A stretch of DNA of 64,000 bases from a virus, in IMG/VR virus record IMGVR_UViG_2915212873_000001, positions 4,973 through 68,972 of that record, one strand, 5' to 3'. The notes beneath the pieces were generated by a model, which saw only the letters and a list, made by a program, of their open reading frames with translations, was not told the origin of the DNA and ran no database searches. The position numbers and the translations under genes are program-made. Of the stretch, positions 1 through 10,525 are shown piece by piece. Every line of letters starts with the position of its first letter. Position 1 is the first letter of the stretch.

Positions 1-972
1 GGCGCTTCGGTCGCGGATGCCGGACTCGTGCTGGCGCAGCCGTTGGTGGTAGCGGCTGCGGCCGTAGGCGCCGAGTGATATGTGGTTCGGCCAAACGATG
101 TAGCCGAGGAATGGCACGCCGGCGGCCACCGGTGCCAAGCGGATTTTCTTGGGATGCAGGGTCAGCCCGTCGCCGGCCAGCTTTTCGACGATGGCGGTGC
201 TCAACTCCAGCAACTGCGCGCGGGAGGATGCAAGGATGACGATGTCGTCGACGTAGCGGACGTATGCTTTCACGCGCAGGTCTTGCTTGATCCAGTGGTC
301 GAAGTCCGACAGGAAGACGTTCGCGAACAGCTGACTAGACAAATTGCCAATCGGCATTCCCTTATCCCGTGTCCGGCGGTACAGGCCATCAGCCGGAAAT
401 AGGGCATCGAACTGGTCGTCGGTGCGGAACGAGTCGATCAGGCCGACGATCAGGGCGCGCACGTCCTGGTCGCCGATGTAGCGCAGCGCTCGCGCCTTCA
501 GCAGGGAGTGATTCACCGAATAAAAGTACTTGGAGATATCTACCTGCAGCGCCCAACTGTTCGCCGGCGAGCGTGCGAACTGCGCCAAGCGGTCGACCGC
601 AGCATGCGTTCCGCGATTCGGCAGGTTGCCAAAGGTGTCGTGGATGAACCTTGGCTGCCAGATCGGCAGCAGGTACTGGTACAGCATCCAATGGACGATG
701 CGATCCTTCATTGGTGCATCGACCACGTGGCGGAATTTTTTCTCGCGCACGGTGAATGTTTTGTACGGCCCGAAGGTGTATTCGCGGGCGCGCAGCCGGC
801 GTTGGATCTCAACCAGGTGCCGGAGCGCGTCGTCGCCAAAGCGCTGCACGCGGAGGCTGGCTGACTTGCTGCGCTTCGCCTGGCGCCAGCACGCATAGAG
901 GTTGGGCAATGACGTCAGTTCGGCGAACTTCGCCGGCGCCGTGCCGCGTTCCGCTGCGGCACTCGTGAGCAC
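1..972 (-). CDS. DGR reverse transcriptase, 3' end outside the window (start uncertain; GTG at 972 is plausible, frame open up to an ATG at 1200)
   Basis: Manual translation: LPNLYACWRQAKRSK, KFRHVVDAPMKDRIVHW, LQVDISKYFYSV, KGMPIGNLSSQLFANVFL (GxxxSQ, DGR-type), RYVDD at 244-255, FLGY; no stop before base 1, hence absent from the ORF track. Confidence 0.97.
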   Translation of the reverse strand, partial: MLTSAAAERGTAPAKFAELTSLPNLYACWRQAKRSKSASLRVQRFGDDALRHLVEIQRRLRAREYTFGPYKTFTVREKKFRHVVDAPMKDRIVHWMLYQYLLPIWQPRFIHDTFGNLPNRGTHAAVDRLAQFARSPANSWALQVDISKYFYSVNHSLLKARALRYIGDQDVRALIVGLIDSFRTDDQFDALFPADGLYRRTRDKGMPIGNLSSQLFANVFLSDFDHWIKQDLRVKAYVRYVDDIVILASSRAQLLELSTAIVEKLAGDGLTLHPKKIRLAPVAAGVPFLGYIVWPNHISLGAYGRSRYHQRLRQHESGIRDRSA

Positions 973-1094
973 CGCAGCGGTCTTCGGTTTGGCAGATTGC
1001 CGCGCTTTCGGGATGATTATCCCAGGAGAGTCTCGACCAAGAATTGACCTTCCGTCGGCTAGCAGCCGAACGTCTAGGTATGAAATTTTTGGGT

Positions 1095-1209
1095 CAGCGG
1101 AGGCCCACGTTGTCGTTGGCGTTGTCCGGCCAGTCGTTGTCGAGATTGAACACGCCGGCGTTGTCCTCGGAGTTCCAGTAGCCGCCCCGGATGAGGGCAT
1201 TGCCAGCCC
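1095..1209 (-). repeat. DGR template repeat (TR)
   Basis: 115 bp gap-free match to 2191-2305; 24 adenines on the coding strand in 16 codons, 8 of them AAC/AAT; lies between the accessory gene and RT. Confidence 0.98.
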
Positions 1210-1238
1210 CTTCAGAGACTCCCCTTTGTCGAGATGGT

Positions 1239-2096
1239 TCATGCTTTTGCCTTCATGGAGCGCATGATGCCTCCGGTCAGACGCCCAAGCTCGACGGCTA
1301 AGCCAACTCGATGCTCAAACGCAAATTTGAGTTGGCTAAGCCCTGCGGCCTGAGTGAGGTAATGTTTCAGCAAATCAATGTCGGCCGAAATCGAGGTCAG
1401 AACTATCGGTTTGTTTGCGGCTTCGCCGAAGGCGTAGATCGCACGCATGATTCGCCCCATGCAGGCGCGCAGGTTTTCCCCGTACGTGGTGCGCAGGTCG
1501 CGGGGCATCTTGATAATGTCCGCCAGAAGGGCGTCGTCCAGCGCTTGCGCGTGAGACTTCAGTTTGAAGCCTGAGCTGTCGGGATTCGCAAGGATCTGCT
1601 TCGCGGCAGCCTGGCTCAGTTGCCCGCGAGTCCGCAGATCGTCGATCACCTGGTGAACGATATCGGCGCTGACGCTGGCCATCAGATTCGAGGTGCCGGC
1701 GTTTTGTTCGGAAACGTAGATTTTCTGATCCTCGCCCCGGGCGCCAAGCGCCACCACATAAGGCATGCCGAATTCCTGCACCATAGGCCAAAGGCGCTTC
1801 TGGAAATTCTTGATCGGGAAGCCGACACGAATATGCGGCTGGTCCGTCGTGCCAACCAACTGCAGTTTGTAGCTCTTGAGCGTTGCCAGCACGTGCGCGG
1901 TGCGATCGAAGCCGTGCAGGAAGCCGCCAGCCTGGATCAGGATGAGGTGATCGCGATATTGCTGCTCCAGTTTCGCGGCTTGGACGGCACCAGCGTCTGC
2001 TGCGCCCAGCCCGATGTCGACCCCGCGCATTGCGCGAATCGCAAATTGGTCCCGCTCGGCTGCCGTCGGGTTTTGTGACTTGTACTCTTGCATCAT
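1239..2096 (-). CDS. avd: DGR accessory protein: N-terminal MutS-I-like domain fused to a C-terminal Avd four-helix bundle
   Basis: C-terminal ~110 aa (KMPRDLRTTYGENLR...IDLLKHYL...ELGRLTGG) fits Avd and its position before TR; QQYRDHLILIQAGGFLHGFDRTAHVL...RVGFP resembles MutS domain I; start taken at ATG 2096. Confidence 0.8.
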   Translation of the reverse strand: MMQEYKSQNPTAAERDQFAIRAMRGVDIGLGAADAGAVQAAKLEQQYRDHLILIQAGGFLHGFDRTAHVLATLKSYKLQLVGTTDQPHIRVGFPIKNFQKRLWPMVQEFGMPYVVALGARGEDQKIYVSEQNAGTSNLMASVSADIVHQVIDDLRTRGQLSQAAAKQILANPDSSGFKLKSHAQALDDALLADIIKMPRDLRTTYGENLRACMGRIMRAIYAFGEAANKPIVLTSISADIDLLKHYLTQAAGLSQLKFAFEHRVGLAVELGRLTGGIMRSMKAKA

Positions 2097-2124
2097 CGTT
2101 CTCGTTTCAGTTGAGGGGGGGGTA

Positions 2125-2149
2125 CCGACCACCGCTGCGCAGTGATCGG
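2125..2149 (-). promoter_or_regulatory. Candidate DGR target-recognition hairpin downstream of VR
   Basis: CCGACCAC...GTGATCGG imperfect inverted repeat about 25 bp past the target stop codon, where characterised DGRs have a hairpin/cruciform. Confidence 0.5.
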
Positions 2150-2174
2150 AAACCAGTGACCAGTGACCAGAGTC

Positions 2175-2906
2175 CTATTCGGGCTTGGTGCAGCGGAGGC
2201 CCACGTAGGCGACGGCGTAGTCCGGCCAGCCGAGGTCGAGACGGAACACGCCGGCGCAGTCCCCGGAGTCCCAGCAGCCGCCCCGGAGGAGGGCATCGCC
2301 AGCCCAGTCACTGCCAACACGTGGTTGCCAGCCGGCGCCCTTGGTCATGGACGGTGCGACCGCACTGGTGATCGATGGCGAGTCGGCGGTGAAGGCGGAG
2401 GTCACCAGACCTTGCTCGTCGCCCTGTACGTCGTCGAAGATCCAGGTGAATGCGTTGCCGGATGCGTCGCAAATGCGCTCGCCGTTCGACAGGGTGAACC
2501 AACGGTCCTCGTCGGCATCCGATGACACGTAGGTGCCGGCCAGAGCCGATTCGACGGACCATTTCCGCAGACCTTGTTTCAGCTTTCCTTCGCCGACCAC
2601 GCCGCTGGTCCAGTTGGCGGCCACGCTGGCGATATCCAATGCCAGCGACAGGTATTGCGATTCGGTGATCAGCGCCAGGCCGGCGGCCTTGCTGGCGGTT
2701 ACGGCGTCGTGGTAGTTGATCTCGACCAGCGGCGCGCGATCAGCTACGGCCATCAACTCGCCCGCATCGTTGCGCGAGGTCAGGTACTGGCCCACAAGGA
2801 ACGACGGCACGATTCGGCCACCCGGCAGGGTGCGCTCCGGCACACGTACGAAGATCGATTCCGTCGCCTGAATGGCGGTGGCTTCTGTTGCGGTGATTGC
2901 GTTCAT
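2175..2906 (-). CDS. DGR target protein, FGE-sulfatase/C-type lectin fold, with VR at the C-terminus
   Basis: FLVGQY...INYHDA...LITESQY...GNAFTW...ALLRGGCW...AGVF...VGLRC pattern typical of CLec/FGE DGR targets; AGGAG RBS; no signal peptide seen. Confidence 0.92.
   Translation of the reverse strand: MNAITATEATAIQATESIFVRVPERTLPGGRIVPSFLVGQYLTSRNDAGELMAVADRAPLVEINYHDAVTASKAAGLALITESQYLSLALDIASVAANWTSGVVGEGKLKQGLRKWSVESALAGTYVSSDADEDRWFTLSNGERICDASGNAFTWIFDDVQGDEQGLVTSAFTADSPSITSAVAPSMTKGAGWQPRVGSDWAGDALLRGGCWDSGDCAGVFRLDLGWPDYAVAYVGLRCTKPE
2191..2305 (-). repeat. DGR variable repeat (VR)
   Basis: 17 mismatches to TR, all at TR adenines; 13 codons changed. Confidence 0.98.
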
Positions 2907-2951
2907 GAGACTCCTTTAGTTGTTAAAGTTGTACTTCTTGGTGGTGAAATT

Positions 2952-3497
2952 TCAGTGTTGTGGCGCACCGTGGTATGCCATCAGCTGGTGATAGCGGTCC
3001 ATGAAATAGCTGTACGCTTCGACCGGTTGCATTGGCACGATCACCTGCGCCAGCGGCTCGACGCCCGGCCATTCCTGATAGTGATGCGGTGGCATCAGGT
3101 CGCGCTTCTCCGTCGCCAGCAAGATCAGATCGGCAGCTTTGATCGCCGGGTCCAGCGGCAGGGTGATGCCGAAGCGCCCGAGGATCGCGGCCTCAATGGC
3201 CTGCTCCAGCACCTGGTAGTCCGGCAGCAACCGCTTGAGCGGCTTCGGCAAGTCCTTCATCACTGCTTCGGAGCAGTCGTGCAGCAGGCCGACCATGGCC
3301 AGCTCTGGCGGGACGATCAAGCTGACCAGCACCGAGTGCTGAGCCACGCTGTAGAAGCTAAGCGTCTGGCCGTTGAATCGCGCCTCGTTGGCCAGGCCGC
3401 TTGCGATGTCCTCGATGGTGATAATCGAGGTCTCCGGCGACAGGAAATTGAAGAAGTTCCCGGAGCGCAGCAAGATGTCGGGGCGGTGGGCGCTCAT
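2952..3497 (-). CDS. HD-domain phosphohydrolase (YfbR/YfdR-like nucleotidase)
   Basis: [27 protein letters not shown] and LLHDCSEA motifs. Confidence 0.88.
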
Positions 3498-4720
3498 GCT
3501 GCACCGCCTTGCGCCAGCAGCGCACGGTCACCGTTCGACGCCGCTGCACTGACCACGCCGGCGGCCTCCATCGCATTCATCAGATGGGCTGCGCGGTTGT
3601 AGCCGATGCGCAGGTGGCGCTGGAGCAGCGATACAGACGCGCGCCGATTGGTGCGCACCACGGTCACTGCCTGCTGGTAAAGCGGATCGCTGGCGGTGCC
3701 GTCGCCGGGCGGAACTTCGCCGGCCGCGCCGACCACGCGCTGCGCGCGCACCGGCTCGTCGCCCTTAGCAGGTGATGCAGGTGATGCAGGTGCGGCAGCG
3801 TCAGCTTCCGCCGGCGTGCCGTCCGCGCGCGCCTCGCCGCCCAGCGCCTCCACCAGATCACCCAGCAGCTTGGCCAGCTCGCCGGTCATCAGCATGAAGT
3901 CGCCGTCGAAGCGCTCGCCGTCGTTGCGGCTGGTGACTTCCTTCTCTGTCAGAACGTCCAGCGGCTTGACCGACTTGACGGCCAGGCTCTCGTCCAGCAC
4001 GAAGCTGATCTTGCTATCCCAGGTCATGGCCAGCCGCGTGCACTGCTTGCCGTTCTCGATGTGACGGCGCACGTCGGCCGGGTCCAGCGTGTGCTTCTTG
4101 TAGGCCACCTGGGCTTTACTCTCGCCGGTGGCGCGCAGCGTGGCGTCCTGGTCGACTGTGAAGCCGGCCGGTGCTTCGTCGGTTTGCAGCCATTCGGTCA
4201 TCACGCCCACCGGCGAGCGCTGCACGCGCAGGCTTTCCAGCGGCATGCGGTCGACCGCCTTCAGCAGCAGCTTGATGACTTCATCGGCCTTGGCAGGGGA
4301 AGCGGCATCCACTACTAGCCAGCCGTTGACCGGGTCGATCCACGTCCAGGTGTTCGATTCGATCGTGAATGCTCGCGGCAGCAGCTCGTCGGTGACGCGC
4401 TCCTTCAATTCCTTCATCGCCTTCTTGCCGGGCGCGAAGCCTTGCTGCTCTTCCAGTTCGGCGGCGCGCGCCTTCGTCACCTGGTTGATGACGGTGGCCG
4501 GCAGCAGCTTCTTTTCGCCGCGCAGGCGGATCAGCATCTGCTTGTTGACGGTGTGCACCAGGCCTCCATCCTTGCGCGGCGCGTCCCAGCCCTGGCGGAT
4601 CAGCTCGTTGCTGCTGGCCGGCGCGAACGTGTAGCTGGCCAGCTGTTTGGCCAGGTGCTCGGCGGTCATGGTGAATCCCGGAATGCGATAAATTTGAAGG
4701 TTTTTGAAGAACATGCTCAT
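3494..4720 (-). CDS. rdgC: Recombination-associated protein RdgC with a C-terminal FtsK-gamma-like winged helix
   Basis: [10 protein letters not shown] start, [28 protein letters not shown]; C-terminal DPLYQQAV...[21 protein letters not shown]. Confidence 0.92.
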
Positions 4721-5319
4721 TTCCCTAACTTTTCGAATGCGGCTTCAACGCCGTGTTTTTGGATTTGTCGGTTCAGGCGCTCTGCTGTAACGCCGAGCTG
4801 ATCGGCCCAATCTTTGCGGCACATGGTTTTTCCTCTGTGGGTAATTTGATGATTGCTGCGCCGGTTTCGGCATTGCTCCGCGTTCGTCGCCCACTTACAG
4901 TTGTCCGGCCCATAACCTTTGCTGTTGTCGATTCTTTCCAGTGACATGCCAGCCGGACGCTCACCCATGTCAGCCAGGAACACTTCGAAAGAGTCCCATT
5001 CTTTGCATACCGTAATGCCGCGAGCTCCATATCCGGCATAACCCGAAGAGCCCGGCTTGCCGCAGCGCGCCCGCATTGTTTTCCAGATGACATGCGTACT
5101 AGTGCCCGACATGCCATGAGTTGCACGCTCACGCGCCTTGTCTGCTGCATGACAGCCGCAGGACTTCACTTGACCGGATTTCAAATGACTACCCCTAACA
5201 AAGGTCGTTTGCCCGCAATCACATTTGCATGTCCAAACGATTTTCCCGGAGGTGCTTCTTGCCATCTCGCCGACTGCAAGTCGGCCGAATCGTTGGCCCT
5301 CGAGTTTGTCGGCAATCAT
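4717..5319 (-). CDS. HNH-type homing endonuclease-like protein
   Basis: [49 protein letters not shown]. Confidence 0.8.
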
Positions 5320-5783
5320 TGCGGCCCTCGTATTGGTGGTTCGTGAAACTCGACGCCCATCTGGCCGCCGAATGCGTGTATCTGTTCCATGTACTGGGCG
5401 AAGCCCTTGACCGTTAGGTCGGTGGTGCTACCTACCAGCACCGCCTGGCCGCCCGGGTCGAAGTCCCACTTCCTGTACTGCTCGTCCTTGCACAGATCCG
5501 GGTCGAATTCATCTGGCAGGAACTGCTGCTTGAAGTACTCGTGCCACACCTCGGCGCTGTACTGCCGCCTGTCGCTCCACACCTGCTCCGAGATGTCTTT
5601 CAGCGGGCCCGCCCACATGCGGGCGTTCTGATCCAGCTTCCGCACCTTTACTTCTTCGCGTACCAACACTTCCAGCGGACGCTCGGCGTCCAGCGGCACG
5701 TTGCGGAGCAGGGCGATGGCGCGGTCGACCTGCTCCTGGCCGCGCAGCAGCAACTTGCGCTGCTCGAACTTCGGGCGGGTCAA
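5316..5783 (-). CDS. ninB: NinB/Orf-family recombination protein
   Basis: RKLDQNARMW...WHEYFKQQFL...STTDLTVKGFAQYMEQIHAFG; TTG start overlaps the upstream TGA. Confidence 0.8.
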   Translation of the reverse strand: MTRPKFEQRKLLLRGQEQVDRAIALLRNVPLDAERPLEVLVREEVKVRKLDQNARMWAGPLKDISEQVWSDRRQYSAEVWHEYFKQQFLPDEFDPDLCKDEQYRKWDFDPGGQAVLVGSTTDLTVKGFAQYMEQIHAFGGQMGVEFHEPPIRGPQ

Positions 5784-6916
5784 GGCGGCGTCTCCACCGC
5801 CAGCGCTGCTACCTTGGTGGTTACCGTCTGCGAATTCAACGCGATCACCTTGTTCGGGGCGCGATCCCAGCCAGCCACCTCGTCGGCAGTGAATTTTCCG
5901 GCCTGCGAAAGGTCGCTCGTATAGCCGCACGCGCCCACGCGGTGATAGAGTTCGTGGCCGGTGTGGTAGATCGCGAACAGCGCCGGATTGCCTGGAAACA
6001 GGATGTCGCGCAGAGCGCCGGCGCGCTCGAAGTTCAATGCCTTGATCGCCTTAGCCATTTCACCTTCCAAGCGGCTGCGGCGCTGTCGAGCATTCCGCTT
6101 AACCCTTGGATCGCCCGGGCACTCGCTGTACAGCTCCTTGTGGTACGCCCACTCAATTCCATGCGTCCCAGTTACCACCATCCAGCGGCCATTCAAGCTG
6201 TAATACGCGGAGCCGTACACCACCCGCCCGGCACTTGTGATCGCATAGACCTTGGAGCCGTCTTCGATGGCGACGCCGTCACCGGTGAAGCCATCCTCTG
6301 GGCTGTTAAAGGAAGCACGGCCGAGGCGCTCCACGTAATGACCGGAGGTGCGTTGGCTATGCTTCGCATATTCCAGCGCAGTGGCGCCATCAATCCCTAG
6401 CTTTGGACTGGATGGTTTAAACGTGTAGCCGCTCAGGACATTGAGAAGGTAAGTGCGAATCCGACGCCGTGCCCGCTCCATTTCGAGCCACATCACGTAT
6501 GGCATATGTTTTTCTTTATCGTGTTGGTAACGGCCGCCGTTATCAGGTCGGTCTGGGGCATTCACGTTTTGGAAGAAATCCAGTTGAATGCACCGCCCCG
6601 AAATATTTAGATCTGCGTGCAGATCACCCTTCTGGCAAAGCCGTTTCGACTCAGCGGACCAGCGGGCCACATTGCCGCCGTAGTGCTTGACGTCGTGCTC
6701 GCACACCTCGGGCATCGCGCAGATCCAGCCAAGGCGATTGAGCGTCTGGACAATGCGTGCGAACACTTCGCGCTTGAATGCGCGGCACCAACGCTTTTCC
6801 TCCGGGTAGCCGCCAGCTGCCCGCGCGGCCGATATGCCTTCCTCGTAAATGTTGAGGCTGGCGTCGCCGAAGGTGATGGTTCCGGCGCGGTCAATGCGCC
6901 CGATTGTCATGCTCAT
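5780..6916 (-). CDS. Hypothetical phage protein (378 aa)
   Basis: Long ORF coupled to both neighbours in the leftward operon. Confidence 0.75.
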   Translation of the reverse strand: MSMTIGRIDRAGTITFGDASLNIYEEGISAARAAGGYPEEKRWCRAFKREVFARIVQTLNRLGWICAMPEVCEHDVKHYGGNVARWSAESKRLCQKGDLHADLNISGRCIQLDFFQNVNAPDRPDNGGRYQHDKEKHMPYVMWLEMERARRRIRTYLLNVLSGYTFKPSSPKLGIDGATALEYAKHSQRTSGHYVERLGRASFNSPEDGFTGDGVAIEDGSKVYAITSAGRVVYGSAYYSLNGRWMVVTGTHGIEWAYHKELYSECPGDPRVKRNARQRRSRLEGEMAKAIKALNFERAGALRDILFPGNPALFAIYHTGHELYHRVGACGYTSDLSQAGKFTADEVAGWDRAPNKVIALNSQTVTTKVAALAVETPP

Positions 6917-7584
6917 GCCGCGCCGCCCAGGTCGACCACGCTGATGACGATGCCACGGCAGTACACGATGCCGTCTTCCATGATGTCGAAGGTGGCGTGC
7001 GGTACAGTCGTGCGGTAGATGGGGCCGACATCGGCGCCGCCGTCTAGCAGTTCCACCGACACATTGGCGATAACTACGGTGCTCTCGCCAAGCTGCCTGA
7101 AATAATCGGGGATGGCGCCGCGCAACTTCAACGGGTAACCGCCAGCGCCGAAGATCACCACCAGGCCCGCCGCCTTGGCATGCGCCCGCTCCTCGGCCGT
7201 GAGGTCGAACGGAGTTGAGCGGCCGTTCAGCGCCACGGCCAGCAGTTCCTTGGTCAGCGCCGGCGCGGCGACCGATTCGGCCGGCGTATTGACGACCGGC
7301 TGCGGCGCAGTGTGGTTGAACTGCGTCTGGTCGACCTTCGTGTAAGGGAACTGAGCGTCAAATTTCTTGATGCGCTGGATGAAGAAGGAGCCCTGAGAAT
7401 CGGCGCCCAGGAATTCAGCGAACATCTCGGCGCTGACGTTTTGGTAGTGATAGATGTCGCTTTCGCCGGTCTTCTTCTTCGGGTGGAACTTGATCGCCAG
7501 CAGGCTCAGCTCCGGCACATGGCCGATGGCCGCGAACTGGCTGGATTCGACCTGCTGCATGACGATGGTAGGGGTGGCGCTCAT
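6913..7584 (-). CDS. KTSC-domain protein with C-terminal extension
   Basis: VESSQFAAIGH...YHYQNVSAEMFAEFLGADSQGSFF. Confidence 0.8.
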   Translation of the reverse strand: MSATPTIVMQQVESSQFAAIGHVPELSLLAIKFHPKKKTGESDIYHYQNVSAEMFAEFLGADSQGSFFIQRIKKFDAQFPYTKVDQTQFNHTAPQPVVNTPAESVAAPALTKELLAVALNGRSTPFDLTAEERAHAKAAGLVVIFGAGGYPLKLRGAIPDYFRQLGESTVVIANVSVELLDGGADVGPIYRTTVPHATFDIMEDGIVYCRGIVISVVDLGGAA

Positions 7585-7605
7585 GGGTTTCTCCGTGGTT
7601 GGTGG

Positions 7606-9423
7606 TTAAGCTGCAGCGCGCAGTTCGGCGCGCAGGGTTGCGATATCGATGATGACGAGGCGGTCGAGCAGGGCGGCCAGCTGCATGCCGGCGGAGCTGG
7701 CCAGCGAGTTCAGGAAGTCGATGTCCTGCCGCACTTCGCGGTCGGCCACGTCGAACAGGCCGGCCGTGGTGCCGGTGGCGGCCGGCGCCGGCGTGCTGGC
7801 CAGCGGCGCGTCACGGTAGAAGCTGGCAGTGCGCTGCACATCGGCGGCGCCGCTGGCTGGCGGGGTGGTGGTGCGCGCGGCGGCTGCCAAGGCTTGAGCT
7901 TGGGCAACTGCGGCGGCGGCCGTGGTCGGGCGAGCCTGGGTAGCAACGGCGGCCTGCTGGGCACGCTGCTCGGCGGCCACGCGGTCACGTTCGGCCTGCG
8001 CGGCCGCAGCCTGGCGATCAGCATCAGCCTTGCGCTCGGCGGCCAGCTTCTCAGCGGCGGCAGCTTCGGCCTTGGCCTTTTCCTCGGCGGCGATCCGGGC
8101 GCGCAGCGCTTCCTGCTTGACCTCTTCGGCGCGGATGTGGTCGGCGATGCGGGTGCGCACCACCAGCTGGAAATCATCAATAGCTTTCCACGACAACTGT
8201 TGCAAGTCGCGGAACAAACCGGCATGGTCGCCGACGTTTGCGTTGTACCAGGCCAGCTTGGCGCGAAGATCGGCGGCTGCTTGACTCGCGGCGATTTTGG
8301 CGTTCGCCAGCGTGGTGTTGGCGGCGTCGTGAAGGCTGGCCAGCGTGCGCTTGTTCTTCATGGCGCCGGCGAAGTCGGGTGCGGGCAGTGAAATTTTCAG
8401 CGGCGCAATTTCTTCTTCAAGCGCCACAACATGATCCTGATAGGCATAGCGGCCTTCGTTCAGAATGGTTTCCTTGATCTGCTCTTTGCGCACCTTGACC
8501 AGCTTTTCCAGTTCCAGGCGCTTGGCGCGGAACTGCGCCTTGATGTGGTCGACCGTGCGCATCACCTCGTCGATGGTCGAGGTCTGCGCCAGCGCGGCGG
8601 CCTTGGCCAGCTCCAGCTTTTGCTCGGCCTCGCCGCAGAACTTGACGTTGTACTCGGCGTCGGCGAAGTCCTGATCATCCTGCAGGTCGGTCTTGATCGT
8701 CGCGAGGAACTTCTCGGCGGCCTTCTGGTAGGCCATCAGGTTGCTGCTGACTACTTTGCCTTCGGTCTGCACGACCAGCGCGGGCAGGGCGGTGGCCGGC
8801 GCGGCCTCGGGCTTCACGGCGTGGTTGACCTGTGTGTAGCTGGCTACATCCGCGTCGAACTGCTCCCAGCCGGCGACGATGCGTGCGAACCAGCTGGTAT
8901 CTGGATACACCCAGGTCCACACCCTATTCGCCTCGGTGCCATCGGACACCATGAACATCCACTTCTCGGCGCCGGTGACCATCAGCTCCTGCTGGACCTG
9001 CGGCATGTGAGTGTCGGGCACTTCGCCGGCCGCAACGGCGGCGGCCAGCTGCTCGTTCCACTGCTTGTGCTCCCAGCCCAGCGAGTCGCAGATGGTCAGG
9101 CCGTCGCACGACGCGCTGATGCGGCCGAGCGAGCAGGTAACAGGGTAGAGCGAATCGTTGATGACCTTCTCGGCAAGCGGGCGCGCCAGCGCTTCGACTT
9201 CGTGGCCGTGGTCCAGGATCTTTTCCTGCACCCAGTCGCTGAATTCTTTCGCCAAACCGGTTGCCTTCATGCGCACCAGTTCGTCGCGAGTGACTTTGTC
9301 GGACAGGCCCAGCATGGCAGCCGCTTCACTGGCGCCGTTGTGCTGCGAGCGGAAGGTGTGCCATTCGTCGCTACCTTGGGCGAGCTGGTGCACTACGTGA
9401 TGAATGTTAGGATCGCGTTGCAT
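7606..9423 (-). CDS. YqaJ/lambda-exonuclease-family recombination nuclease with long coiled-coil and Ala-rich tail
   Basis: QGSDEWHTFR...GASEAAAMLG...ASCDG...WEHK...PQVQQEL. Confidence 0.9.
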   Translation of the reverse strand: MQRDPNIHHVVHQLAQGSDEWHTFRSQHNGASEAAAMLGLSDKVTRDELVRMKATGLAKEFSDWVQEKILDHGHEVEALARPLAEKVINDSLYPVTCSLGRISASCDGLTICDSLGWEHKQWNEQLAAAVAAGEVPDTHMPQVQQELMVTGAEKWMFMVSDGTEANRVWTWVYPDTSWFARIVAGWEQFDADVASYTQVNHAVKPEAAPATALPALVVQTEGKVVSSNLMAYQKAAEKFLATIKTDLQDDQDFADAEYNVKFCGEAEQKLELAKAAALAQTSTIDEVMRTVDHIKAQFRAKRLELEKLVKVRKEQIKETILNEGRYAYQDHVVALEEEIAPLKISLPAPDFAGAMKNKRTLASLHDAANTTLANAKIAASQAAADLRAKLAWYNANVGDHAGLFRDLQQLSWKAIDDFQLVVRTRIADHIRAEEVKQEALRARIAAEEKAKAEAAAAEKLAAERKADADRQAAAAQAERDRVAAEQRAQQAAVATQARPTTAAAAVAQAQALAAAARTTTPPASGAADVQRTASFYRDAPLASTPAPAATGTTAGLFDVADREVRQDIDFLNSLASSAGMQLAALLDRLVIIDIATLRAELRAAA

Positions 9424-9425
9424 AA

Positions 9426-10280
9426 TTATTCCTTGTCAGCGTTACTTGCCTCGGCCGCCTTTGGCGCCCAGGACAGGATGGTTTTCTTTTGCGCTTCGGT
9501 GAAGGTGGCGCGAGTGCTCAGCATTGCGAGCAGCTGCTCCGGCGTTTTCTTACCGGACTCGACCGTCTTTTTCCACTTCGGCGATTCAGCGTTGAACAGG
9601 TCGTCGCTGCATGGTGGCGGCCCTTCAGGGGCTGCCGATTGCGTGGCGGCTGGCTCGTAGTGTTCGTACGGGCGGAGCTCTTCGGGTAGGTCTTCGATGT
9701 CCTGACTGAACATGTCCGAAGCGCCGGTGACCGTCAGCGTCATTGCCACGTGTGCGCGCTTCGACGCCATCTTCAAAACCGTATTTGCCTGATCGGCGGC
9801 TTCGGTGCGAACTTGGGGATTTTTGTAGATCGCGCCGCGCTCACCCTTTGCGAACTTGATGCGTCGCATCGTTTCAGGCGTGACATCGAACTCTTCGGTG
9901 CAAATAGCCTTTCGCCATTTATATTTTTCTTCTGCCGACGAGCACTCGCCCACACCTTCGCCCAGAACGATGCCGGTGGTCTGATGCGTACCCACGCAGG
10001 TGACGCGGCACCGGGCGATGCCGTCTTCACCCAGGTCATCGACGCGGTAGGACGGGGCGATGCGGAAAGCCACGCACAGCACCTCGGCGCCAGCCTTGTA
10101 CAGCGTCGGCTTCGGTGTGCCTGGGATTTTTCCGTAATGGACGCCTTCCTTCATGACGGCGCGCATCACCTCCTGCACCAGGTTGACACGTTCGCGAATC
10201 TCGGCGGCCGAGTAGCGGTGCACCTCTGCGGCCGTGAGGCCGGCCACCTCGCGCGGTGGCAGTTCAACTACAGCGTTCAT
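9426..10280 (-). CDS. Putative single-strand annealing protein (partner of the exonuclease)
   Basis: Directly upstream of the exonuclease; HYGKIPG-KPTLYKAGAE and NTVLKMASKRA motifs; function inferred from gene order. Confidence 0.5.
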   Translation of the reverse strand: MNAVVELPPREVAGLTAAEVHRYSAAEIRERVNLVQEVMRAVMKEGVHYGKIPGTPKPTLYKAGAEVLCVAFRIAPSYRVDDLGEDGIARCRVTCVGTHQTTGIVLGEGVGECSSAEEKYKWRKAICTEEFDVTPETMRRIKFAKGERGAIYKNPQVRTEAADQANTVLKMASKRAHVAMTLTVTGASDMFSQDIEDLPEELRPYEHYEPAATQSAAPEGPPPCSDDLFNAESPKWKKTVESGKKTPEQLLAMLSTRATFTEAQKKTILSWAPKAAEASNADKE

Positions 10281-10525
10281 TTCGTTCTCCGGTTCAACTT
10301 CGTTAAAGCTGCATTCAGCAGGGCAAGACGTAATGCGTGTTGTGGGCGGTGGCCGGCGCGCAGGTTGCGTAGCGTGTCGGCCGCCAGGTGGGCGAGGGCG
10401 GCTTTCACTGATCCGCCTTGCAGGCGCTCGCCGCCTGCTCGCGTTCGGCAGCTTCCGCGTCAGCCCACTGCATAAAGGCGTAGCCGGCAAGGATGATCAT
10501 TGCCAGCGCGGCGATGGTCAGCGCT

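What the first reader, a model, noticed from the sequence alone, without database searches (positions are those of the whole stretch)
1239..2096. Accessory gene appears to fuse a MutS-I mismatch-recognition-like domain to Avd
Seen: the ORF is 285 aa, over twice a typical Avd. The last ~110 aa (1239-1568) look like Avd. The segment at about 1740-1970 (LEQQYRDHLILIQAGGFLHGFDRTAHVLATL...IRVGFP) lines up by eye with MutS domain I (QY.D.hhhh.GDFYE.F..DA...A..L...MAGVP). The mismatch-stacking Phe is kept and the Glu is replaced by His. Established: Avd forms a complex with the DGR RT, and separate MutS-like (MSL) accessory genes have been reported in some DGRs. Inference: a single-chain MSL-Avd could bring mismatch binding to the RT-cDNA complex and protect or guide the heavily mismatched cDNA/VR heteroduplex. 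I cannot say whether this fusion has been described.
Basis: partly seen in the sequence, partly recalled or inferred. Interest (0 to 1): 0.8.

Follow-up and report, generated by a model that had tools for sequence, protein, structure and literature searches.

The report
Fused MutS-like–Avd DGR helper protein
The helper gene of this prophage's targeted-mutation machine (a diversity-generating retroelement) joins two known helper proteins in one chain, a copy of the mismatch-sensing head of the repair protein MutS and the Avd four-helix bundle, which suggests the untested MutS-like helper works physically attached to the reverse-transcriptase complex.

Summary
The ORF at 1239-2096 (minus strand) encodes 285 aa and sits between the variable repeat (VR) and template repeat (TR) of a prophage DGR with adenine-specific TR/VR differences.

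- **Avd half.** Residues about 172-285 form an Avd four-helix bundle (Z 14.4-15.3 to bAvd).
- **MutS half.** Residues about 28-135 have the MutS domain I fold. Modelled alone (pLDDT 85), all 50 best Foldseek hits are MutS/MSH. VIA gives Z 9.1-11.7 for four MutS/MSH chains; the next chain scores 4.8.
- **Sequence link.** The direct Pfam MutS_I hit is sub-threshold (16-17.8 bits against a 20.6 cut-off). A profile of the N-domain alone finds stand-alone DGR MutS-like (MSL) proteins that do pass the cut-off.
- **One gene.** The frame is open full-length in more than 300 homologues, 63 viral contigs and 22 of 24 genome loci.
- **Split form.** A related DGR carries target-MSL-Avd-TR, with the two genes in the same order as the two domains here.
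- **Motif.** Phe59 is invariant (123/123). The MutS Glu is His (119/123).
- **Activity.** Two isolates of a related phage differ only at eight TR-adenine sites in one VR, so such DGRs are active.

Function is inferred: mismatch or heteroduplex handling on the RT-Avd complex, most likely shielding from host MutS. MSL and Avd are known classes, and I found no paper describing the fusion. This scan has noted similar fusions in other genomes. I rate it a new variant of a known kind, of moderate interest.

The parts
1239..2096 (-). Accessory gene encoding the 285-aa single-chain MSL-Avd protein. The stop codon at 1239-1241 overlaps the next ATG as ATGA.
   Evidence: ORF list and translation; sequence at both ends; more than 300 full-length homologues of 281-285 aa.
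1692..2015 (-). MutS-domain-I-like (MSL) module, residues 28-135.
   Evidence: Pfam MutS_I E 0.004. Domain-only AF2 model pLDDT 85, pTM 0.78. Foldseek top 50 all MutS/MSH, TMq 0.54-0.70. VIA Z 11.7/10.9/9.9/9.1 for MutS/MSH3/MSH6, next chain 4.8. ESM Atlas: 98 of 100 nearest named clusters carry MutS_I.
1914..1922 (-). F59-L60-H61, the counterpart of the MutS Phe-X-Glu mismatch-contact motif.
   Evidence: Translation. Alignment to Taq MutS F39/E41. Family counts: F 123/123, L 123/123, H 119/123 with Q in 4.
1584..1691 (-). Linker, residues 136-171, mostly one long helix (144-170), conserved across the family.
   Evidence: AF2 secondary structure; mean column conservation 0.69.
1242..1583 (-). 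Avd four-helix-bundle domain, residues 172-285.
   Evidence: bAvd, NCBIfam and PHROG hits. VIA Z 15.3 (8ub7_B) and 14.4 (4dwl_A). Foldseek TMt 0.81-0.83 to bAvd chains. pI 9.6.
1089..1214 (-). Template repeat (TR).
   Evidence: Direct repeat with the VR at 83% identity. 19 of 21 differences fall at TR adenines; the other two are at the repeat edges.
2185..2310 (-). Variable repeat (VR) at the 3' end of the target gene.
   Evidence: It is the only VR for this TR in the genome.
2175..2906 (-). DGR target gene, 243 aa, related to FGE-sulfatase / C-type-lectin-fold targets.
   Evidence: phrog_2889 E 8e-23 and phrog_9572 'sulfatase-modifying factor enzyme' E 3e-9. Homologous targets sit upstream of the fusion in 24 of 24 genome loci.
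1..1242 (-). ORF containing the TR and continuing into the DGR reverse transcriptase. It runs 68 nt beyond the window start; the full ORF is 436 aa.
   Evidence: RVT_1 E 7e-23. The full ORF is in L007. Alignment with two homologous loci.

Best explanation
The gene encodes a single-chain DGR accessory protein made of two known accessory modules that related elements encode as adjacent genes in the same order.

What is shown (about 0.95):
- An N-terminal MutS-domain-I-like (MSL) head is joined by a conserved helix to a C-terminal Avd four-helix bundle.
- The protein belongs to a prophage DGR cassette: target/VR, then MSL-Avd, then TR, then RT.
- Closely related cassettes are active in nature.

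What is inferred (about 0.35-0.4):
- The Avd half assembles as in the Bordetella phage system, a pentamer docking the RT and the TR RNA. Up to five basic MutS-I heads would then sit on the cDNA-synthesising particle.
- The heads keep the stacking Phe and the conserved G-F-P loop, which aligns to the MutS A-G-(I/V)-P loop. They lack every other MutS domain (connector, clamp, ATPase) and so lack the parts of MutS that drive repair.
- They would bind the adenine-derived mismatches, or the distorted duplex formed when mutagenised cDNA pairs with the VR.
- The most likely result is that the host's own MutS is kept off, so that the new sequence is not repaired back to the parental one.
For: Architecture:
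- Avd half.
- MutS-I fold.
- Sequence link. The N-domain-only profile finds stand-alone proteins P0153, P0154 and P0156-P0159 at E 6e-6 to 7e-4 in 1.84 billion representatives. These pass the Pfam MutS_I cut-off at 26.9-54.5 bits. A profile of fused N-domains plus stand-alone MSLs, with no MutS included, hits Taq MutS at E 3.2e-7 and E. coli MutS at about 1e-5.
- ESM Atlas agrees.

One gene:
-.
- Conservation is even along the chain: 0.77 for the head, 0.69 for the linker, 0.80 for the Avd domain.

Split form:
- L008 has a Lcl_C target with VR, then a 115-aa MSL, then a 159-aa Avd overlapping it by 11 nt, then the TR.
- L009 has a 191-aa MSL, a 147-aa ORF, the TR and the RT.

Cassette conservation:
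- Target, fusion and an RT match in that order in all 24 genome loci; the RT match is full-length about 0.3 kb (up to 0.55 kb) downstream in 19.

Activity:
- L037 and L096 are the same phage from two metagenomes, with an accessory protein 65% identical to this one. They differ at 8 of 6852 nt, all in VR1 and all at TR-adenine positions.

Motif:
- F59 is invariant and H61 near-invariant.
- PDB holds E. coli MutS E38A, E38Q and E38T mutants bound to a G.T mismatch (rows), so loss of the Glu does not abolish mismatch binding.

Context for anti-repair:
- The host has a full mutS.
- Knocking out host mutS raised retrohoming 5-10 fold in Bacteroides (bioRxiv 10.1101/2024.11.15.621889).
- An engineered DGR in E. 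coli was built with a dominant-negative MutL (bioRxiv 10.64898/2026.07.21.739853).
Against: - No binding, genetic or expression data exist for this protein or for any MSL.
- The direct Pfam MutS_I score is below the curated cut-off (16-17.8 against 20.6 bits). The N-domain-only profile does not reach MutS in the PDB (E 1.6). hhalign against the host MutS N-terminus gives only 5% probability.
- The MutS Glu is replaced by His, and stand-alone MSLs carry E, Q, H, N or R there, so mismatch discrimination may differ or be lost.
- In MutS, domain I works within a dimer that clamps the DNA; whether an isolated domain binds mismatches is unknown.
If true, that argues for a role beyond blocking MutS.
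- Pentamer formation and RT docking are assumed from bAvd, not tested. The full-length model has pTM 0.51, so the arrangement of the domains is unknown.
Confidence: 0.55

Rival explanations
1. The fold and fusion are as described, but the MutS-I head acts during reverse transcription or cDNA hand-off rather than against host repair. It would grip the RNA:cDNA hybrid or the primer terminus that carries A:N mispairs, or recognise the cDNA/VR heteroduplex or D-loop to guide integration.
For: The covalent link to Avd places the head at the RT-RNA particle, not at the chromosome. The head is basic (pI 9.1), as expected for nucleic-acid binding, unlike the neutral average Wu et al. report for MSLs. 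Translational coupling to the RT-frame ORF through ATGA suggests stoichiometric co-production. Wu et al. also report MutS_I-like C-terminal extensions on three DGR RTs. An unchecked scan note (e1-5224686) reports a fused MSL-Avd in a lineage said to lack mismatch repair.
Against: Adenine mutagenesis in the Bordetella system needs only RT-Avd and RNA (background knowledge, not tested here), and most DGRs have no MSL (16 of 372 in Wu et al.). An essential role in synthesis is therefore unlikely in general. No data exist on binding of MutS domain I to RNA:DNA hybrids.
Confidence: 0.25
2. The N-domain is a MutS-I-derived scaffold that has lost mismatch recognition. It would serve another purpose, such as oligomer stabilisation, binding of a phage or host protein, or regulation of the DGR.
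For: The Glu of the Phe-X-Glu motif is lost, and that position varies across MSLs. The ESM Atlas shows MutS_I modules recruited into unrelated architectures such as Prim-Pol and Eco57I/N6_Mtase fusions, so the domain is a versatile module.
Against: The two conserved MutS-I loops are the best-kept positions shared by the fused heads, the stand-alone MSLs and MutS. In the 11-sequence alignment with the host MutS N-terminus the invariant columns are G57, A67, G92 and P94, and F59 is kept in all but two stand-alone MSLs (M, Y). F59 is 123/123 in the family. The domain is basic.
Confidence: 0.15
3. The resemblance to MutS domain I is chance or a generic alpha/beta fold. The N-domain would then be an unrelated 'long-Avd' extension, for example TIR-like as hinted by a weak SIGIRR hit.
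For: The family-only profiles give SIGIRR E 0.07-0.26 as best PDB sequence hit and MutS only E 1.6. The Pfam hit is sub-threshold. An earlier scan note on another genome (e1-5248127) could not confirm the MutS link for a different long Avd.
Against: Two independent structure searches put only MutS/MSH chains at the top, with a gap from Z 9.1 to Z 4.8. There is a transitive sequence link through proteins that pass the MutS_I cut-off. 15 of 30 family members give the same MutS_I hit. ESM Atlas: 98 of 100. No TIR chain appears in the fold lists.
Confidence: 0.03
4. The 285-aa ORF is an annotation or assembly artefact joining two genes (MSL and avd).
For: Split MSL and avd genes exist, and they overlap by 11 nt in L008, so a single frameshift could join them.
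Against: There are more than 300 full-length homologues at 58-67% identity with the same length. The frame is intact in 22 of 24 genome loci and in 63 viral contigs from many samples. The linker is conserved and there is no conserved internal start.
Confidence: 0.02

Closest known systems
Split MSL + Avd accessory gene pairs of DGRs ('Architecture D', Wu et al. 2018, PMC5758913; Msl of Bacteroides DGRs, bioRxiv 10.1101/2024.11.15.621889). Example fetched here: L008.
   Same: The same two modules in the same order (MSL, then Avd) at the same place in the cassette, between target/VR and TR/RT. The heads share the MutS-I fold and the G-x-F and G-F-P motifs.
   Different: Here the two modules are one polypeptide joined by a conserved helix of about 35 residues. 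The head is basic (pI 9.1, against the neutral average reported for MSLs). The motif is fixed as F-L-H. The Avd halves show no pairwise BLAST similarity. No paper in the held library describes the fused form, although Wu et al.'s upper MSL size of 283 aa matches this family's length.
bAvd, accessory variability determinant of the Bordetella phage BPP-1 DGR (PDB 4dwl; RT-Avd-RNA particle 8ub7/8ub8).
   Same: Four-helix bundle of about 110 residues (Z 14.4-15.3, rmsd 1.8-1.9 A, TMt 0.81-0.83), basic, encoded just upstream of the TR and RT.
   Different: 16-19% identity. Scores are below the curated Pfam and NCBIfam cut-offs. This protein carries a 170-residue N-terminal extension that bAvd lacks. 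Pentamer formation and RT binding were not tested.
Domain I (mismatch-binding domain) of MutS/MSH proteins (Taq MutS 1ewq/1fw6, E. coli MutS 1e3m, human MSH3/MSH6).
   Same: Fold (TMq up to 0.70, Z up to 11.7, 21-24% identity to Taq MutS), the stacking Phe in the beta-hairpin, and the G-F-P loop aligned to the MutS A-G-(I/V)-P loop.
   Different: There is no connector, lever, clamp or ATPase domain, so this is not a repair enzyme. Glu is replaced by His. The genome's real mutS lies elsewhere.
Engineered DGR systems in E. coli that add a single-strand annealing protein (CspRecT) and a dominant-negative MutL (bioRxiv 10.64898/2026.07.21.739853).
   Same: The idea that DGR cDNA installation benefits from recombination functions and from suppression of mismatch repair. 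Here the natural DGR sits inside a phage recombination module (YqaJ, NinB, RdgC; RecT in homologous loci) and carries a MutS-like head.
   Different: This is an analogy only. Nothing shows that the natural head suppresses repair or that the neighbouring recombination genes serve the DGR.

Membership tests
Avd (DGR accessory variability determinant; Pfam bAvd PF22296, NCBIfam NF033474) | Four-helix-bundle fold of about 110 residues like bAvd | tested here: met
   VIA Z 15.3 (8ub7_B, rmsd 1.9, 110 aligned) and Z 14.4 (4dwl_A). Foldseek TMt 0.81-0.83. Helical bundles often score high by chance, but the bAvd and S23-IVP family chains are the top four rows.
Avd (DGR accessory variability determinant; Pfam bAvd PF22296, NCBIfam NF033474) | Sequence match to the curated Avd models above their cut-offs | tested here: not met
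   bAvd 19.6-21.7 bits against a cut-off of 40. NF033474 24.3 bits against 80. The E-values are nonetheless significant (3e-5 to 1.3e-3), 30 of 30 family members hit bAvd, and many homologues carry a precomputed PF22296 call. This is a divergent member; Avds are known to be poorly conserved.
Avd (DGR accessory variability determinant; Pfam bAvd PF22296, NCBIfam NF033474) | Encoded in a DGR cassette next to the TR and RT; basic protein | tested here: met
   Gene order VR, gene, TR, RT, conserved in related loci. Avd-domain pI 9.6 against 9.5 +/- 0.7 reported for Avds.
Avd (DGR accessory variability determinant; Pfam bAvd PF22296, NCBIfam NF033474) | Homopentamer that binds the RT and the TR RNA | not testable with these tools
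   Only single chains can be modelled here.
MSL (MutS-like DGR accessory protein, Wu et al. 2018) / Pfam MutS_I PF01624 | MutS domain I fold | tested here: met
   Domain-only model pLDDT 85. Foldseek top 50 all MutS/MSH (E down to 2.6e-6, TMq 0.54-0.70). VIA Z 11.7, 10.9, 9.9 and 9.1, then 4.8.
MSL (MutS-like DGR accessory protein, Wu et al. 2018) / Pfam MutS_I PF01624 | Pfam MutS_I score above the gathering cut-off (20.6 bits) | tested here: not met
   16.0 bits for the full protein and 17.8 bits for the N-half. 15 of 30 relatives give the same sub-threshold hit. Homology is supported transitively through stand-alone MSLs that score 26.9-54.5 bits, and by the mixed profile, which hits Taq MutS at E 3.2e-7.
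MSL (MutS-like DGR accessory protein, Wu et al. 2018) / Pfam MutS_I PF01624 | Small protein or module with domain I only, encoded inside a DGR cassette that also has Avd | tested here: met
   No other MutS domain was found. The cassette is shown. The Avd is present in the same chain.
MSL (MutS-like DGR accessory protein, Wu et al. 2018) / Pfam MutS_I PF01624 | Phe-X-Glu mismatch-contact motif | tested here: inconclusive
   The Phe is kept (123/123). The Glu is replaced by His (119/123) or Gln (4). Stand-alone MSLs also vary at the Glu position, so the Glu does not define MSL, although it does define repair-proficient MutS.
MutS (mismatch-repair ATPase) | Domains II-V, including the ABC ATPase and the clamp | tested here: not met
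   The protein has 285 aa and only the domain I and Avd matches. The genome's true mutS is on another contig (148 bits, ORF of about 896 aa). This protein is not a MutS.

The most novel reading that the evidence does not exclude
The fusion builds a five-headed mismatch 'cap' on the Avd pentamer. It would travel with the cDNA and sit on the adenine-derived mismatches of the cDNA/VR heteroduplex, acting as a natural element-encoded inhibitor of host MutS at one locus only. If so, MSL-Avd would explain how DGRs escape all-or-nothing mismatch repair. It could also replace global repair suppression (dominant-negative MutL) in engineered DGR mutagenesis systems.
Probability: 0.3. Interest if true: 0.7.

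Novelty: new variant of a known kind. Interest (0 to 1): 0.5.

Why it matters
MSL has been a named DGR accessory class since 2018, but its function has never been tested. A conserved, widespread single-chain MSL-Avd is a Rosetta-stone argument that MSL acts in physical contact with Avd, and so on the RT-RNA-cDNA particle rather than as a free repair factor.

- **Scale.** More than 300 protein clusters, 63 viral contigs and 24 species genomes carry it.
- **Link to recent findings.** Host MutS limits DGR retrohoming, and engineered DGRs were built with mismatch repair suppressed.
- **A compact test object.** One gene carries an invariant Phe to mutate, and it sits in a phage DGR family for which natural activity can be shown.

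If the head shields mismatches locally, it would be a useful part for targeted in vivo mutagenesis tools.

Tried and rejected
- **Family-only profiles against PDB sequences**. There was no significant MutS hit (E 1.6). The best hit was the SIGIRR TIR domain at E 0.07-0.26, judged chance because no TIR chain appears in either fold search.
- **hhalign of the N-domain profile against the host MutS N-terminus**. It gave 5% probability and E 0.008, with a correct register but too little diversity in the profiles to be significant.
- **BLASTP of the fused Avd half against the Avd of the split loci**. No similarity was found. This is consistent with the poor conservation of Avds and gives no information on ancestry.
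- **N-domain profile against 1.84 billion representatives**. Only 38 hits were found and canonical MutS was not reached. Two long hits were checked: P0149 is a repetitive cell-wall amidase, and P0147 has no Pfam match and only weak BLASTP similarity (E 0.007). Both were set aside.
- **Public sequencing runs for 1000-3000**. None was listed, so neither expression nor VR heterogeneity in this strain could be examined.
- **Supplementary tables of Wu et al. 2018**. They are not held, so I could not check whether their 283-aa 'MSL' is a member of this fused family.
- **Same-order genomes**. Only 2 of 401 carry the gene, own genome included. The gene is sporadic and prophage-borne, not lineage-wide.
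- **Separate-genes and internal-start readings.** Rejected. The only conserved Met after the N-domain (M197) lies inside the Avd bundle.
Full report
**1. What is in the sequence**

On the minus strand, the left end of the window carries a complete DGR cassette.

- The target gene is at 2175-2906 (243 aa). It matches phage families annotated as sulfatase-modifying-factor-like.
- Its 3' end is the variable repeat at 2185-2310. The template repeat is at 1089-1214.
- Over the 126-nt repeat there are 21 differences. 19 fall at TR adenines and the other two sit at the repeat edges. TR adenines fall mostly in codon positions 1 and 2.
- This is the only TR/VR pair in the genome.
- Downstream of the TR the same ORF continues into a reverse transcriptase (RVT_1 E 7e-23). 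It runs 68 nt past the window start.
- Between VR and TR lies the ORF in question, 1239-2096, 285 aa from the ATG at 2096. That start agrees with the start of the homologues.
- Its TGA overlaps the ATG of the TR/RT-frame ORF as ATGA.

**2. The C-terminal half is Avd**

- Three independent HMM libraries assign residues about 177-284 to Avd: Pfam bAvd E 3e-4, NCBIfam DivGenRetAVD E 3e-5, PHROG 'Avd protein of DGR' E 1.8e-5. All three are below the curated cut-offs.
- All 30 sampled relatives hit bAvd.
- In the AF2 model (mean pLDDT 75), residues 172-284 form a four-helix bundle. It superposes on bAvd in the RT-Avd particle (8ub7_B, Z 15.3, rmsd 1.9 A, 110 residues) and on free bAvd (4dwl_A, Z 14.4). 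Foldseek gives TM 0.81-0.83 normalised to the Avd chains.
- The domain has pI 9.6, as reported for Avds.

**3. The N-terminal half is a MutS domain I**

- *Direct sequence evidence.* It is weak: Pfam MutS_I E 0.004-0.015, 16-17.8 bits against a cut-off of 20.6. Half of the relatives give the same hit.
- *Transitive link.* A profile built only from the N-domains of the fused family was run against 1.84 billion representative proteins. It found only 38 proteins. Among them are small stand-alone proteins of 87-191 aa (E 6e-6 to 7e-4) that pass the MutS_I cut-off on their own at 26.9-54.5 bits.
- *Mixed profile.* A profile of fused N-domains plus these stand-alone proteins, with no MutS included, hits Taq MutS at E 3.2e-7 and E. 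coli MutS at about 1e-5. It aligns F59 with Phe39 and H61 with Glu41 of Taq MutS.
- *Domain-only model.* Modelled alone, the domain gives pLDDT 85 and pTM 0.78.
- *Fold searches.* All 50 best Foldseek PDB matches are MutS, MSH2, MSH3 or MSH6 chains (E down to 2.6e-6, TM by query 0.54-0.70). A search that does not rely on Foldseek gives Z 11.7 (Taq MutS), 10.9 (MSH3), 9.9 and 9.1 (MSH6). The next chain is at Z 4.8.
- *ESM Atlas.* The feature search gives MutS_I clusters for 98 of the 100 nearest named clusters (score 0.95).

I regard the fold assignment as secure and the homology as very likely.

**4. It is one protein**

- More than 300 proteins match over the full length at E <= 0.001. The 120 listed are almost all 279-297 aa at 58-68% identity.
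- The conservation profile is flat across head (0.77), linker helix (0.69) and Avd (0.80).
- A more divergent branch of 307-333 aa has the same architecture.
- The frame is intact in 22 of 24 loci found in species-representative genomes. The two Undibacterium arcticum copies show apparent frameshifts.
- The gene is also found in 63 IMG/VR viral contigs.
- The only conserved Met after the N-domain lies inside the bundle, so an internal start is unlikely.

**5. Where it occurs**

- Hosts named in the records are mainly Burkholderiales and Rhodocyclales: Undibacterium, Duganella, Pseudoduganella, Telluria, Solimicrobium, Aromatoleum, Thauera, Gallionella and Paracandidimonas. There is also a Lysobacteraceae MAG.
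- Within the window's own order only 2 of 401 sampled genomes carry the gene. This fits a prophage-borne gene.
- The cassette order (one or two targets, fusion, RT match) holds in all 24 loci. In 19 the RT match is full-length about 0.3 kb (up to 0.55 kb) downstream.
- The surroundings are a phage early and recombination module: RecT/YqaJ/RdgC in L001 and L003; YqaJ, NinB, RdgC-FtsK-gamma and HNH in this window.

**6. The split counterpart**

- *L008.* The stand-alone MutS_I protein P0156 (115 aa) lies in L008. The order there is Lcl_C-type target with a VR, the 115-aa MSL, a 159-aa Avd (bAvd 39.2 bits) overlapping it by 11 nt, and then the TR.
- *L009.* The order is a 191-aa MSL, a 147-aa ORF, the TR and the RT, with the VR in a downstream gene.
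- The gene order of the split form therefore equals the domain order of the fusion. This is the classic pattern of a gene fusion between interacting partners.

**7. Such DGRs work**

- L037/L038 and L096 are the same phage recovered from different metagenomes. Its accessory protein is 65% identical to this one and has the same architecture.
- Over 6852 nt they differ at eight positions. All eight lie in one of the two VRs and all at TR-adenine positions.
- By chance, eight differences would all fall in a 121-nt stretch with a probability of about 1e-14.
- This shows recent mutagenic retrohoming in a cassette of this type. It does not show activity for the copy in this window.

**8. Residues**

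- In 123 family members F59 and L60 are invariant. H61 is His in 119 and Gln in 4. The R-V-G-F-P loop, which aligns to the MutS A-G-(I/V)-P loop, has invariant G92 and P94.
- In the alignment that adds the host MutS N-terminus to fused heads and stand-alone MSLs, the invariant columns are G57, A67, G92 and P94. The Phe is kept in all but two stand-alone MSLs. The Glu position varies among the stand-alone MSLs (E, Q, H, N, R).
- PDB entries of E. coli MutS E38A, E38Q and E38T bound to a G.T mismatch appear among the matches. The Glu is therefore not needed for binding as such.
- The head is basic (pI 9.1).

**9. How it probably works**

*Shown.* It is a two-module accessory protein of a DGR, co-encoded and translationally coupled with the RT frame.

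*Inferred.*
- The Avd half plays the usual Avd role on the RT and TR RNA.
- The tethered MutS-I heads engage the mispaired or distorted duplexes that adenine mutagenesis must create.
- I favour local shielding of the cDNA/VR heteroduplex from host MutS, for these reasons:
  - The host has a full mutS.
  - Deleting mutS raised retrohoming 5-10 fold in Bacteroides in an all-or-nothing manner.
  - An engineered E. coli DGR was built with a dominant-negative MutL, added to suppress mismatch repair.
  - The head lacks every MutS part beyond domain I.

*Main rival.* The head may act on the RNA:cDNA hybrid or in cDNA hand-off and integration. I cannot separate these two readings computationally.

*Weak points.* An isolated domain I may bind poorly. 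The Glu is lost. Most DGRs manage without MSL.

**10. Comparison with what is known, and novelty**

- MSL and Avd are both published DGR accessory classes (Wu et al. 2018, PMC5758913).
- In that paper, in the 2021 and 2023 reviews and in the Bacteroides study they are treated as separate genes.
- 'Fused' and 'fusion' do not occur in the main text of Wu et al.. My full-text searches found no description of a single-chain MSL-Avd.
- The upper MSL length in Wu et al. (283 aa) equals this family's length, and genomes carrying the gene were public before 2017. Members may therefore already sit unremarked in that data set. The supplement is not held.
- Earlier notes of this scan report MSL-Avd fusions in other genomes. 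These are unchecked AI notes. I used them as leads only.
- I rate this as a new variant of a known kind, with moderate interest.

Noticed in passing
window 1-1242 (-); L001:5843-7135; L003:5849-7138: The TR lies inside an ORF that starts at the ATGA overlap with the accessory gene and continues in frame into the RT (436, 431 and 430 aa). It is open in all three loci compared. Either the RT is made with a TR-encoded N-terminal extension, or the true RT start is internal with no obvious ATG. A conserved 'PKARQ.A.P.T' stretch between TR and RT core may reflect RNA-level (spacer) conservation rather than protein.
   Followed up: partly
L037 and L096, positions 1897-1933 (VR1 at 1835-1955): Two metagenome copies of a related phage differ at only 8 of 6852 nt, all at TR-adenine positions of one VR. 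The second VR (2796-2916) is identical in both. This is direct evidence of recent retrohoming, apparently at one of the two targets.
   Followed up: yes
window 3494-10490 (-): The DGR is embedded in a phage recombination module. The module comprises RdgC fused to an FtsK-gamma domain (3494-4720), an HNH endonuclease (4717-5319), NinB (5316-5930), a YqaJ-type exonuclease with a long C-terminal extension (7606-9423), and a 354-aa protein of unknown function (phrog_10048, 9426-10490). The 354-aa protein sits where homologous loci carry RecT, so it is a candidate single-strand annealing protein. The adjacency recalls the engineered DGRs that need an added RecT.
   Followed up: partly
L032 and L033 (Undibacterium arcticum, one contig): One genome carries two copies of the cassette. 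In both, the accessory gene matches in two pieces in different frames. This is either real decay or homopolymer errors of a long-read assembly. A 284-aa protein from this species is on record (P0023).
   Followed up: no
L024:5837-7722; L026:5825-6933; L011 and L030: In two loci the RT lies 1.1-1.9 kb downstream of the accessory gene instead of about 0.3 kb, which suggests inserted DNA. In two others only the last ~35 residues of the RT match, which suggests degraded cassettes.
   Followed up: no
ESM Atlas rows; P0151: MutS domain I occurs as a stand-alone module fused to quite different partners: phage Prim-Pol, Eco57I/N6_Mtase restriction-modification enzymes, DUF3553, a winged helix, and a zinc ribbon in the 132-aa P0151. 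It looks like a mobile DNA-distortion-sensing module in phage and defence contexts.
   Followed up: no
P0186 (378 aa): A relative of the divergent fused branch is 378 aa and carries a precomputed RVT_1 hit. It is either a gene call reading through into the RT or a triple MSL-Avd-RT fusion.
   Followed up: no
L008:2263-2346: The stand-alone Avd gene of the split cassette contains a 42-nt tandem duplication at 74% identity, which lengthens its C-terminal tail.
   Followed up: no
window 2097-2174 (-): The 78-nt spacer between the target stop codon and the accessory start contains a tandem 'GGTCACT' heptamer and a C8 run (G8 on the plus strand). Only a weak Shine-Dalgarno-like sequence precedes the ATG.
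   Followed up: no
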